Positions 1,066 to 1,521 of a DNA stretch of 4,791 bases are shown piece by piece. Positions within the stretch are counted from its first letter, which is position 1, and every line of letters starts with the position of its first letter. Below the pieces are notes generated by a model, which was not told the origin of the DNA, did no database searches, and saw nothing but the letters and a program-made list of their open reading frames with translations. The translations under genes were made by a program, and so were the position numbers. The stretch lies in IMG/VR virus record IMGVR_UViG_2648501669_000004, positions 1-4,791 of that record, one strand, 5' to 3'. Source of the stretch: a virus. Taxonomy: Duplodnaviria > Heunggongvirae > Uroviricota > Caudoviricetes.

Positions 1066-1093
1066 TTGCGGGAAAAGGAGAGTTAAGTAGAAT
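1066..1093 (+). promoter_or_regulatory. Candidate sigma70 promoter for the hok transcript (TTGCGG -16- TAGAAT)
   Basis: -35-like TTGCGG at 1066-1071, 16-nt spacer, -10-like TAGAAT at 1088-1093 (5/6 match to TATAAT). The predicted start near 1098-1101 coincides with the 5' element that is complementary to the transcript 3' end. Prediction by eye only. Confidence 0.3.
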
Positions 1094-1097
1094 TGCT

Positions 1098-1111
1098 GCG
1101 GGTGCTTGAGG
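1098..1111 (+). promoter_or_regulatory. 5' leader element complementary to the 3' end of the hok transcript (tac/fbi-like fold-back partner)
   Basis: GCGGGTGCTTGAGG (1098-1111) can pair with CCTCAACGCACCCGC (1476-1490) as 8 + 6 bp with a single bulged C. This resembles the 5'-3' fold-back pairing described for hok mRNAs. Confidence 0.4.
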
Positions 1112-1269
1112 CTATCTGCCTCAGGCATGAACACCAAAAGGCAGATAGAGAAAAGCCCCAGTTAACATTACGCGTCCTGCAAGACGCTTAACATTAATCT
1201 GAGGCCCAATCTATGTCTCACAAATGTAGGTTAGCCTCTTACGTGCCGAAAGGCAAGGAGAAGCAGGCT

Positions 1270-1425
1270 ATGAAGCAGCAAAAGGCGATGTTAATCGCCC
1301 TGATCGTCATCTGTTTAACCGTCATAGTGACGGCACTGGTAACGAGGAAAGACCTCTGCGAGGTACGAATCCGAACCGGCCAGACGGAGGTTGCTGTCTT
1401 CGTAGACTACGAATCTGAGAAGTAA
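1270..1425 (+). CDS. hokD: Hok/Gef-family type I toxin (HokD/RelF-like small membrane toxin), 51 aa
   Basis: MKQQKAMLIALIVICLTVIVTALVTRKDLCEVRIRTGQTEVAVFVDYESEK shows the Hok family hallmarks: N-terminal TM helix followed by LCE(I/V)R...EVAAF..YES. It is near-identical over most of its length to my recollection of E. coli HokD/RelF. AAGGAG at 1255-1260 sits 9 nt before ATG 1270. The ORF track extends the frame upstream to ATG 1213 (70 aa); I take 1270 as the toxin start. Confidence 0.85.
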   Translation: MKQQKAMLIALIVICLTVIVTALVTRKDLCEVRIRTGQTEVAVFVDYESEK

Positions 1426-1434
1426 GAGTGACCA

Positions 1435-1456
1435 GGCGGGAGAGTAATCTCCCGCC
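1435..1456 (+). other. Stable RNA hairpin immediately 3' of the hok stop (9-bp GC-rich stem, GUAA tetraloop)
   Basis: GGCGGGAGA (1435-1443), loop GTAA, TCTCCCGCC (1448-1456): a perfect 9-bp stem. No U-tract follows, so this is not a canonical terminator; more likely a structural or stability element in the hok mRNA 3' region. Confidence 0.5.
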
Positions 1457-1494
1457 ACCTCTGATGTGTCGGCATCCTCAACGCACCCGCGCTT

Positions 1495-1521
1495 AACCCG
1501 CTTCGGCGGGTTTTTTGTTTT
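1495..1521 (+). terminator. Rho-independent terminator of the hok transcript
   Basis: Stem CCCGC (1497-1501), UUCG loop, GCGGG (1506-1510), extendable by A-T pairs, followed by TTTTTTGTTTT (1511-1521). Confidence 0.8.

What the first reader, a model, noticed from the sequence alone, without database searches (positions are those of the whole stretch)
1066..1521. Apparently complete hok-type toxin transcription unit with 5'-3' fold-back pairing, detached from relBE
The Hok toxin here is near-identical to HokD/RelF as I recall it. In E. coli K-12, hokD sits downstream of relBE and is described as lacking hok/sok-type regulatory elements. In this window the gene instead has about 170 nt of structured leader, a candidate promoter, a 3' hairpin, an intrinsic terminator, and a 14-bp (8+6, one bulge) complementarity between leader 1098-1111 and 3' region 1476-1490. 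That is the architecture of an autonomously regulated hok mRNA (tac/fbi-like fold-back). I could not locate a convincing Sok-type antisense promoter or terminator on the minus strand, so the antitoxin, if any, is undefined. Hok loci have been linked to phage exclusion, so an active type I toxin in the nin region could be a prophage defence or addiction module.
Basis: partly seen in the sequence, partly recalled or inferred. Interest (0 to 1): 0.7.

Follow-up and report, generated by a model that had tools for sequence, protein, structure and literature searches.

The report
Complete prophage hok/mok/sok toxin–antitoxin locus

Summary
Window 1066-1521 holds a full hok transcription unit: promoter, about 170 nt of leader, mok and hok reading frames, a 3' hairpin, a 5'/3' fold-back (1098-1111 with 1476-1490) and a terminator. 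The fold-back is in the minimum-energy fold with pair probabilities near 1. It recurs at the same place in homologous loci from six or more genera, with compensatory changes.

Sok is on the minus strand at about 1221 to 1151, with -35 TTGCCT (1256-1251), -10 TAACCT (1233-1228) and a terminator hairpin.

The locus is 95.4% identical over 1066-1498 to mokW/hokW/sokW, annotated in phage 933W and VT2-Sakai (Sp5). The Hok protein is 51/51 identical to HokW. That system was shown to be a working type I toxin–antitoxin pair (PMC8621323), and its promoter-less mutant changes exactly this -10.

About 79% of complete E. coli genomes carry the full leader. About 21% carry the K-12 relE-hokD junction, where homology starts only at window 1256.

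Verdict: a real feature, correctly read, already known. The physiological role (lysis helper on induction, phage exclusion or addiction) remains open. Interest is low.

The parts
1066..1093 (+). hok promoter: -35 TTGCGG 1066-1071 (16-nt spacer; or TTTGCG 1065-1070 with a 17-nt spacer), -10 TAGAAT 1088-1093
   Evidence: Read from the sequence. A -10-like hexamer (TAGAAT, TACAAT, TATAAT, TAGTAT, TATGAT and similar) ends 6 nt before the GGGYGC tac motif in all 27 loci inspected, although the upstream sequence is unrelated. The strict consensus scan does not call it.
1100..1516 (+). Full-length hok mRNA, about 415 nt. The start is inferred at 1100-1101 by spacing from the -10 and by alignment to the R1-type locus; the end is at the terminator T run.
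   Evidence: Fold z-score -8.06. The ends are inferred, not mapped.
1098..1111 (+). tac (translational activator element): the 5' arm of the fold-back. It is also one arm of the metastable hairpin and of the tac/ucb stem.
   Evidence: Pairs with 1476-1490 in the MFE at probability 0.87-1.0. The GGGYGCTTGAGG motif is conserved in 41 loci.
1118..1128 (+). 3' arm of the metastable nascent hairpin (1102-1112 with 1118-1128)
   Evidence: An 11-bp hairpin in the fold of 1100-1130. 95.8% of cells are paired across 41 loci, against 32-51% for slid controls. U-A changes to C-G in 13 loci at 1103:1127.
1112..1148 (+). Leader stem-loop (1112-1121 with 1139-1148)
   Evidence: 92% of cells paired, with 3 pairs changed on both sides.
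1153..1161 (+). ucb / anti-SD box. It pairs with the mok SD region (1199-1205) in the full-length fold and with tac (1100-1107) in the alternative fold.
   Evidence: The tac/ucb pairs are 99% paired but invariant across 41 loci.
1151..1221 (-). Sok antisense RNA, about 71 nt. The 5' end at 1221 covers the mok start codon and SD. A terminator hairpin at about 1207-1155 is followed by CUUUUCUCU.
   Evidence: Coordinates are transferred from the annotated sokW of phage 933W (L001 2937-3007). The fold of the minus strand gives a long hairpin plus a U-rich tail. The hairpin helix shows 6 pairs with changes on both sides.
1228..1256 (-). Sok promoter: -35 TTGCCT (1256-1251), 17-nt spacer, -10 TAACCT (1233-1228)
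   Evidence: Conserved in 41 loci (TTGCCT, TTGACC or TTGCGC; invariant GTAAGAGGC spacer core; -10 positions 2 and 6 invariant). The Sp5 'pro-less' mutant (primers YO-421/422) changes TAGGTTAGCC to CCGGCTCGCC, which is this -10, and unmasks toxicity.
1201..1204 (+). mok Shine-Dalgarno sequence GAGG
   Evidence: Lies 8 nt before the mok ATG. It is paired with ucb in the full-length fold and lies within the Sok-complementary stretch.
1213..1425 (+). mok reading frame, 70 codons, in frame with hok
   Evidence: Same start and end as the annotated mokW. The ATG lies 56-58 nt upstream of the hok ATG in 41/41 loci, but the frame varies.
1270..1425 (+). hok toxin gene, 51 aa, with SD AGGAG at 1256-1260
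   Evidence: Pfam PF01848 81.1 bits. PHROG 251 'MokW-like host killing', E 9.8e-33. 51/51 identical to HokW.
1403..1417 (+). Small hairpin with loop CUACGAA around Tyr47 codon TAC (1408-1410): a TadA-type A-to-I editing motif (Tyr to Cys)
   Evidence: Hairpin in the MFE. TACGAA is invariant in 41/41 loci. Editing of hokC, hokD and hokE at this position is reported in PMC12214031.
1435..1456 (+). 3' hairpin, presumed to be the protective end of the 3'-processed (active) mRNA
   Evidence: 9-bp stem. Conserved, with changes on both sides (helices 5 and 6). The role is inferred from R1 (PMC9841398).
1476..1490 (+). fbi (fold-back inhibitory element): the 3' arm of the fold-back, with bulged C1482
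1495..1521 (+). Intrinsic terminator: stem 1495-1512 followed by a T run
   Evidence: Shared with the K-12 hokD locus (homology runs to 1521) but not with 933W (homology ends at 1498).

Best explanation
Window 1066-1521 is an intact hok/mok/sok type I toxin-antitoxin cassette. It is an allele of hokW/sokW, which NCBI's annotation pipeline labels hokD, and it lies in the nin region of a lambdoid E. coli prophage.

The mechanism below is taken from plasmid R1 and from hokW/sokW. The structural elements were checked here.

1. A weak constitutive promoter (-10 at 1088-1093) makes a stable mRNA of about 415 nt.
2. While the RNA is nascent, tac is held in a metastable hairpin (1102-1112 with 1118-1128).
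3. In the finished RNA, tac pairs with fbi (1476-1490). The mok SD is held by ucb and the hok SD by 1236-1240, so the RNA is neither translated nor bound by Sok.
4. Slow 3' trimming back to the 1435-1456 hairpin removes fbi. Tac then re-pairs with ucb (1153-1159) and frees the mok ribosome-binding site.
5. Translation of mok (1213 onward) is needed for hok translation.
6. The short-lived Sok RNA (minus strand, 1221 to 1151, from a conserved promoter at 1256-1228) pairs with the mok start region, and the duplex is cleaved.
7. When Sok supply stops, Hok is made, inserts into the inner membrane and kills or lyses the cell.

The most likely role in this setting is inferred from Sp5: Hok is produced after prophage induction and speeds lysis and phage release.
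For: Identity:
- Rfam RF01794 scores 121.7 bits against a gathering score of 59.
- Pfam HOK_GEF scores 81.1 bits. PHROG 251 'MokW-like host killing' hits at E 9.8e-33.
- 95.4% nucleotide identity over 1066-1498 to the annotated mokW/hokW/sokW of 933W and VT2-Sakai. The Hok protein is 51/51 identical.

Structure:
- tac/fbi is in the MFE with probability near 1.
- The same complementarity, 11-14 bp, lies 17-25 nt after the conserved 3' hairpin in 37 of 41 loci from Escherichia, Shigella, Kluyvera, Citrobacter, Photorhabdus, Pantoea, Erwinia, Kalamiella and an R1-type plasmid.
- Covariation is coupled. Position 1103 changes U to C together with its fbi partner 1485 (A to G; 13 loci) and with its metastable-hairpin partner 1127 (A to G; 13 loci).
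- Other helices are 88% paired, against 39-50% for slid controls, and 13 pairs change on both sides.

Sok: the promoter is conserved in 41 loci and is identical here to Sp5, where mutating this -10 unmasks toxicity.

Function of the identical toxin and close-homologue antitoxin: HokW is toxic and locates to the inner membrane. sokW neutralises it, with partial dependence on RNase III and Hfq. sokW disappears and HokW appears after mitomycin C in a RecA-dependent way. Deletion halves phage release.
Against: - Nothing was measured for this copy: no transcript ends, no toxicity, no Sok expression.
- The MFE of the 3'-truncated RNA (1100-1460) keeps the metastable hairpin and does not show the tac/ucb switch. 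The activating rearrangement therefore rests on R1 experiments and on invariant, hence uninformative, tac/ucb pairs.
- The Sok 5' end and mok codons 2-4 differ from hokW.
- The terminator differs from 933W, where homology ends at 1498.
- Chromosomal hok loci tested earlier did not give post-segregational killing, as summarised in the bioRxiv survey.
- The lysis-helper effect in Sp5 is modest (two-fold) and was measured for a copy at another position in the phage genome.
Confidence: 0.93

Rival explanations
1. The cassette is a silent relic. It is structurally intact but physiologically inert, as proposed for several chromosomal hok loci, and is carried along with the prophage.
For: [quoted passage not shown] K-12 hok loci other than hokB are regarded as inactivated. 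Deleting hokW-sokW did not affect normal growth.
Against: Every regulatory element is intact and under visible constraint, including compensatory changes. The toxin is identical to HokW, which is toxic and is expressed on induction. Unlike K-12 hokA, hokC, hokD and hokE, there is no IS insertion or truncation.
Confidence: 0.1
2. The main role is abortive-infection-type defence of the lysogen. Infection by another phage shuts off host transcription, Sok decays, and Hok kills the cell before the invader completes its cycle.
For: R1 hok/sok on a high-copy plasmid lowered T4 plating by 42% and plaque size by about 85%, as cited. hok genes are enriched four-fold in prophages.
Against: No enrichment of hok next to defence systems was found. 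Hok has no match in PADLOC-DB. The only test of the identical toxin showed a positive effect on the carrier phage, not a defence phenotype. The R1 effect needed a high copy number.
Confidence: 0.2
3. The main role is prophage addiction: cells that lose the prophage are killed because the stable hok mRNA outlives Sok.
For: This is the established role of hok/sok on plasmid R1. The cassette moves as a self-contained module between phages and plasmids.
Against: Chromosomal hok loci failed post-segregational killing tests. Genomes carry up to 10 related copies, and a resident Sok could cross-protect unless the alleles are specific. Spontaneous loss of an integrated prophage is rare.
Confidence: 0.15
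4. hok has no working promoter of its own here and is expressed only as read-through from the upstream early-operon genes.
For: The consensus scan finds no sigma-70 site. No terminator separates the upstream ORFs from hok. The -35 is poor, matching 3 of 6 positions.
Against: A -10-like hexamer is kept at a fixed distance from tac in 27 loci with unrelated upstream sequence, including plasmid and non-Escherichia contexts. hokW mRNA is present in the uninduced Sp5 lysogen. The fold-back needs a defined 5' end next to tac.
Confidence: 0.05

Closest known systems
mokW/hokW/sokW of Stx2 phages 933W and VT2-Sakai (Sp5)
   Same: 95.4% nucleotide identity over window 1066-1498. Hok is 51/51 identical, and mok has the same start, the same end and the same frame. 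The Sok promoter region is identical. Homology extends upstream to window 542 and includes the 131-aa ORF and the 27-aa hydrophobic ORF. The system was shown experimentally to be a type I toxin-antitoxin pair (PMC8621323).
   Different: Position: here it is in the nin region between DUF551-type genes and DUF968-RusA-Q. In 933W it is at the prophage right end next to attR. Homology stops at 1498, so the terminator differs. Mok residues 2-4 and the matching Sok 5' segment differ (SHK against LNT).
hokD (relF) of the E. coli K-12 Qin prophage, downstream of relBE
   Same: Hok is 47/51 identical. The stretch from just upstream of the hok SD, through the CDS, 3' hairpin, fbi and terminator, is shared (window 1256-1521). 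Downstream neighbours of the same kinds follow (DUF968 protein, antitermination protein).
   Different: K-12 has relE directly upstream. It lacks everything before window 1256: the hok promoter, tac, ucb, the mok start and the Sok gene with its -10. The K-12 junction is found in 1166 of 5426 genomes; the full leader is found in 4295 of 5426.
hok/sok (parB) of plasmid R1, the archetype
   Same: The elements come in the same order: -10, tac GCTTGAGGC, metastable partner, ucb AGCCCC, mok SD and ATG, invariant TAGCCTCTTAC...CAAGGAG carrying the antisense promoter, hok, TACGAA, 3' hairpin, fbi.
   Different: Only patchy nucleotide similarity. Hok identity is 44% for HokW against R1 Hok. The R1 leader has a longer insert, and its tac/fbi has no bulge in the R1-type locus. 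R1 is plasmid-borne with a proven post-segregational killing role.
hokC (gef)/mokC/sokC of the E. coli chromosome
   Same: mok is in frame with hok (69-70 aa) and the leader elements are the same. The fbi is TCTTCAACGCACCC with the same bulged C.
   Different: About 80% Hok identity. The Sok hairpin is shorter, with a 12-nt deletion relative to the window. It is a core-chromosome locus, and its 3' end is disrupted in the K-12-like copy L016.

Membership tests
[quoted passage not shown] | Small Hok/Gef membrane toxin ORF (about 50 aa) | tested here: met
   Pfam PF01848 scores 81.1 bits against a cut-off of 22. PHROG 251 hits at E 9.8e-33. The NCBIfam Hok subfamily model scores only 53.6 bits, below its cut-off of 73.
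[quoted passage not shown] | Conserved structured leader RNA | tested here: met
   Rfam RF01794 covers model positions 1-157 of 157 with 121.7 bits against a gathering score of 59. The match is on the hok mRNA strand.
[quoted passage not shown] | Long-range tac/fbi pairing between the 5' end and the 3' UTR | tested here: met
   In the MFE and centroid with probability 0.87-1.0. 6 of 2000 shuffles reach the same duplex energy. Conserved in 37 of 41 loci, with U-A to C-G compensation in 13.
[quoted passage not shown] | Metastable 5' hairpin that sequesters tac in the nascent RNA | tested here: met
   11 bp in the fold of 1100-1130. 95.8% of cells paired, with 3 pairs changed on both sides.
[quoted passage not shown] | Refolding of the 3'-processed mRNA (tac/ucb stem forms, mok SD is freed) | tested here: inconclusive
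   The tac/ucb stem forms in the fold of 1100-1165 and is 99% paired across loci, but it is invariant. The MFE of 1100-1460 does not adopt it.
[quoted passage not shown] | mok reading frame with its own SD, starting upstream of hok and overlapping it | tested here: met
   mok is 1213-1425 with SD GAGG at 1201-1204. The ATG position is conserved in 41/41 loci. It matches the annotated mokW.
[quoted passage not shown] | cis-encoded antisense Sok RNA with its own promoter and terminator, complementary to the mok start region | tested here: met
   -35 at 1256-1251, -10 at 1233-1228, RNA from 1221 to 1151, hairpin plus U tract. The promoter is assigned by homology to the mutated -10 of Sp5. Expression of this copy was not measured.
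[quoted passage not shown] | Toxicity of Hok and neutralisation by Sok | not testable with these tools
   Shown for the identical HokW protein and the near-identical sokW in PMC8621323.
[quoted passage not shown] | Post-segregational killing or phage-exclusion phenotype | not testable with these tools
   Reported for R1. Negative for the chromosomal loci tested earlier.
K-12-type relBE-hokD (relBEF) arrangement | relE directly upstream of hok, with no hok leader or Sok | tested here: not met
   The window carries a full leader and no relBE. K-12 homology begins at 1256.
Catalogued anti-phage defence systems (PADLOC-DB 2.0) | A protein that matches a defence-system model | tested here: not met
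   No PADLOC hit for Hok. The neighbours give only weak, sub-significant hits.

The most novel reading that the evidence does not exclude
The cassette may be wired to prophage induction by its position and orientation. Here, and in five of five other genomes sampled, hok lies co-oriented inside the N-antiterminated early-right operon, and no terminator separates it from the upstream genes. In 933W it lies co-oriented downstream of PL-N-...-xis-int, but it becomes contiguous with that operon only after excision and circularisation joins attL to attR. Read-through sense transcription across the convergent Sok promoter could shut Sok off by transcriptional interference. That would explain the unexplained rapid, RecA-dependent loss of sokW after induction. 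This is an inference from gene order only, and it rests on two independent contexts.
Probability: 0.2. Interest if true: 0.45.

Novelty: already known. Interest (0 to 1): 0.12.

Why it matters
It matters little as a discovery. The cassette was annotated in phage 933W (mokW/hokW/sokW). The identical toxin and a near-identical antitoxin were tested in 2021. The fold-back and its coupled covariations are long-established features of the hok mRNA family.

The check is useful mainly as a correction of perspective. The textbook K-12 hokD, which lacks regulatory elements, is a truncated minority form. The full self-regulated form is what most E. coli carry, usually in the nin region of lambdoid prophages. 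What these prophage copies do remains open: lysis timing, exclusion of other phages, or nothing.

Tried and rejected
- The consensus promoter scan found no sigma-70 site in 900-1700 or in the whole window. Its thresholds are too strict for the weak hok promoter and for the Sok -10 (TAACCT matches 3 of 6 positions). Promoters were assigned instead by positional conservation and by the published mutant.
- Column-wise counting of tac/fbi on the MFFT-free, unedited MAFFT alignment gave only 79% paired cells and little excess over shuffles. Clades with and without the bulged C are aligned one column out of register in the 6-bp half. Per-sequence duplex prediction resolved this.
- Folding the 3'-truncated RNA did not reproduce the tac/ucb switch. 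I left this as inconclusive.
- Sub-threshold Rfam hits in the 3' UTR (rsmX 24.8 bits, CsrC 16.2 bits) and elsewhere (Trp_leader, sR55, ceN48) are far below their gathering scores. They rest on terminator-like hairpins, and I dismissed them as chance.
- PADLOC gave no support for a catalogued defence system.
- The minus-strand ORFs that overlap the locus (1315-1458 and 1407-1664) have no support and lie antisense to conserved RNA elements. I treated them as spurious.
- I considered whether the in-frame mok is a peculiarity. It is not: 29 of 41 loci are in frame, including the R1-type locus.
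Full report
**What the window is.** The 4791-base window is part of a lambdoid E. coli prophage. Region 1066-1521 is 99.8% identical to the chromosome of strain ETEC1732. There it sits among replication and nin-type genes and upstream of DUF968, RusA, antiterminator Q and a DNA methyltransferase. 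Pfam on the window's ORFs gives:
- DUF551 (50-583)
- HOK_GEF (1270-1425)
- DUF968/HNH (1866-2924)
- RusA (2926-3306)
- antitermination protein Q (3303-4124)

**Checking the observation.** All the listed elements are present.
- The Hok ORF (1270-1425, 51 aa) scores 81.1 bits on Pfam PF01848. It is 47/51 identical to K-12 HokD.
- The leader matches Rfam RF01794 end to end over 1100-1275, with 121.7 bits against a gathering score of 59.
- A terminator is called at 1495-1512.
- Folding 1095-1521 gives -174.3 kcal/mol, z = -8.06 against shuffles.
Pair probabilities are 0.87-1.0.
- A duplex this stable between the 5' 20 nt and the 3' UTR appeared in 6 of 2000 dinucleotide shuffles. None of 425 other windows of the sequence reached it.
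- By spacing from the -10, and by alignment with an R1-type locus, the transcript probably starts at 1100-1101. In that case 12 of the 14 pairs are in the RNA.

**Identity.** Phage records show that window 1066-1498 is 95.4% identical to a region of 933W and VT2-Sakai (Sp5) annotated as mokW, hokW and the sokW antisense RNA.
- The Hok protein is identical to HokW, 51/51.
- mok has the same start (window 1213) and the same stop as mokW and is in frame with hok. Mok residues 2-4 differ.
- Homology with 933W runs from window 542 to 1498.

**The missing antitoxin.** I transferred the sokW annotation (L001 2937-3007, minus strand) to the window. This places Sok at 1221 to 1151 on the minus strand.
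- Upstream on that strand are -35 TTGCCT (1256-1251), a 17-nt spacer and -10 TAACCT (1233-1228).
- The consensus scan misses this promoter because the -10 matches only 3 of 6 positions.
- In an alignment of 41 hok loci the -35, the spacer core GTAAGAGGC and -10 positions 2 and 6 are conserved. The first 15 or so nucleotides of Sok are hypervariable.
- Takada et al. (PMC8621323) made a promoter-less sokW by changing TAGGTTAGCC to CCGGCTCGCC (primers YO-421/422). That is exactly this -10, and the window is identical to Sp5 there.
- The minus-strand RNA folds into a long hairpin followed by CUUUUCUCU.
- Its 5' part is complementary to the mok ATG (1213-1215) and the mok SD (1201-1204).

**Comparative test of the RNA architecture.** I collected 47 loci encoding Hok relatives from one genome per species and added 933W, two plasmids and an R1-type plasmid locus. 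I aligned 41 distinct full loci (A1).
- *tac/fbi.* The core GGGYGC:GCRCCC is kept. Position 1103 with 1485 is U-A in 23 loci, C-G in 13 and U-G in 4.
- *Register problem.* The second half of the helix is out of register in MAFFT, because only the E. coli-type loci have the bulged C.
- *Per-sequence duplexes.* Prediction locus by locus finds 11-14 bp at the same place, 17-25 nt after the conserved 3' hairpin, in 37 of 41 loci. In 28 of these 37 loci no more than 3 of 200 shuffles do as well. The hokC-type loci, which have G-U pairs, and the R1-type locus are weaker on this test. Three of the four exceptions have visibly disrupted 3' ends.
- *Metastable hairpin.* 1102-1112 with 1118-1128 is 95.8% paired, against 32-51% when slid. 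It shows the same U-to-C change at 1103, matched by A-to-G at 1127, in 13 loci. One nucleotide covaries with two alternative partners. This is the coupled covariation I recall as published for the hok mRNA family (my own knowledge; that paper was not retrieved here).
- *tac/ucb stem.* 1100-1107 with 1153-1159 is 99% paired but invariant, so it is uninformative.
- *Other helices.* The leader stem, ucb with mok SD, the Sok hairpin, the hok-SD hairpin and the 3' hairpin are 88% paired, against 39-50% when slid. Thirteen pairs change on both sides.
- *Truncated RNA.* The MFE of a 3'-truncated RNA did not show the tac/ucb switch. That step rests on R1 experiments as summarised in PMC9841398.

**The hok promoter.** A -10-like hexamer (here TAGAAT, 1088-1093) ends six bases before GGGYGC in all 27 loci inspected. 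These include Photorhabdus, Erwinia, Pantoea and R1-type loci, and the sequence further upstream is unrelated. This argues for an own promoter rather than expression by read-through only. In Sp5, hokW mRNA is present before induction.

**Relation to K-12 hokD.** In a K-12-like genome the order is relB, relE, hokD, rem, a hypothetical gene, ydfU (DUF968) and an antitermination protein gene. Local alignment shows that homology with the window begins at 1256, four bases upstream of... more precisely 14 bases before the hok ATG, and runs to 1521. K-12 therefore keeps the SD, the CDS, the 3' hairpin, fbi and the terminator.

The truncated form is the minority.
- A 161-nt probe across the relE-hokD junction is covered at 80% or more in 1166 of 5426 complete E. 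coli genomes.
- The leader (window 1090-1290) is covered at 80% or more in 4295 of 5426 genomes. The median is 2 places per genome and the maximum is 10.
- Five of five sampled genomes have the full locus co-oriented with its prophage neighbours and upstream of late-regulatory genes. Four show the hypothetical-DUF968-RusA-Q order; the fifth is a degraded prophage with DUF1367-DUF1364-DUF1133.

**Mechanism and role.** The molecular mechanism is that of hok/sok.
- Shown here: the elements and their conservation.
- Taken from the literature on R1 and hokW/sokW: 3' processing, the refolding switch, mok-hok coupling, cleavage of the duplex by RNase III, and membrane damage.

For the role, the closest experiment concerns the identical toxin in Sp5. 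It showed that sokW disappears and HokW appears after mitomycin C in a RecA-dependent way, about an hour before endolysin. Deleting the locus delays growth arrest by about 40 min and halves phage release. Phage exclusion is reported for R1 on a high-copy plasmid. Addiction remains possible. Earlier tests of chromosomal loci for post-segregational killing were negative, and hok is not enriched next to defence systems. PADLOC has no matching model.

**A speculative extension.** In the window and in the five sampled genomes, hok is co-oriented with the early-right operon and no terminator lies upstream of it. In 933W it is co-oriented with PL-N-...-xis-int but lies on the far side of attL/attR. 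It would join that operon only after circularisation. Read-through across the convergent Sok promoter could be what removes Sok on induction. This is an inference from two independent contexts and was not tested.

**Verdict.** The finding is real and correctly interpreted. It describes a known, widespread, annotated and partly characterised system. The interest is low.

Noticed in passing
window 1403-1417: Inside hok, a 4-bp stem carries the 7-nt loop CUACGAA around Tyr47 codon TAC (1408-1410). As I recall, this is the anticodon-loop sequence of E. coli tRNA-Arg(ACG), the natural TadA substrate. TACGAA is invariant in 41 of 41 aligned hok loci. Tyr-to-Cys A-to-I editing at this position is reported for hokC, hokD and hokE (PMC12214031).
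   Followed up: partly
window 975-1058: A 27-aa hydrophobic ORF (MTWPEAFTTVGIAMAVALVVYSICRWG) ends just before the hok promoter and is conserved next to hokW in 933W. Two other genomes have an unrelated 34-aa hydrophobic ORF in the same position (L055 and L056, 3354-3458). It has no Pfam or PHROG match.
   Followed up: partly
window 1205-1227 (Sok 5' end / mok codons 1-5): This stretch is hypervariable between alleles, while the flanking Sok promoter and mok SD are conserved. The window's variant matches L006 and L007, not 933W, although its Hok C-terminus matches 933W, so the allele is a mosaic. The pattern may give Sok-hok specificity in genomes with up to 10 copies.
   Followed up: no
alignment A1 (41 hok loci); window 1213: The mok ATG is kept 56-58 nt upstream of the hok ATG in all loci, but its frame varies. 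It is in frame with hok in 29 loci (including the window and the R1-type locus), +1 in 6, and a 19-codon ORF ending at the hok start in 6.
   Followed up: yes
window 1100-1275: The Rfam family named 'sok antitoxin' (RF01794) matches the plus strand, that is the hok mRNA leader up to the hok AUG. It does not match the strand that encodes Sok. Strand calls from this model should be read with care.
   Followed up: partly
L001 (933W right end) and L054 (933W left end): hokW and four upstream ORFs are on the same strand as N...xis-int but on the other side of the attachment site. They become downstream of the PL operon only in the excised circular genome.
   Followed up: partly
window 1-4791: No sigma-70 consensus-like site on either strand of the whole window, against 5.3 +/- 1.8 expected from shuffles.
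   Followed up: no
window 4125-4231: Directly after the Q antiterminator gene there are two terminator-like hairpins (4158-4174 and 4205-4224) and a weak Trp_leader-like Rfam hit (24.3 bits, below threshold). This is probably the late promoter / qut / tR' region of the prophage.
   Followed up: no
L003 2990-3005 (K-12-like relE-hokD junction): The junction reads GCGTTGACAGGAGAAGC. The truncation point creates a perfect TTGACA hexamer on the hok strand, immediately upstream of the hok SD.
   Followed up: no
hit H31 (PP818812.1): A phage record attributed to Actinobacillus pleuropneumoniae carries this locus at 96.5% identity. Contigs labelled Acinetobacter, Xanthomonas and a gut MAG also carry E. 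coli-type hok (L015, L023, L050). These look like contamination or mislabelling.
   Followed up: no
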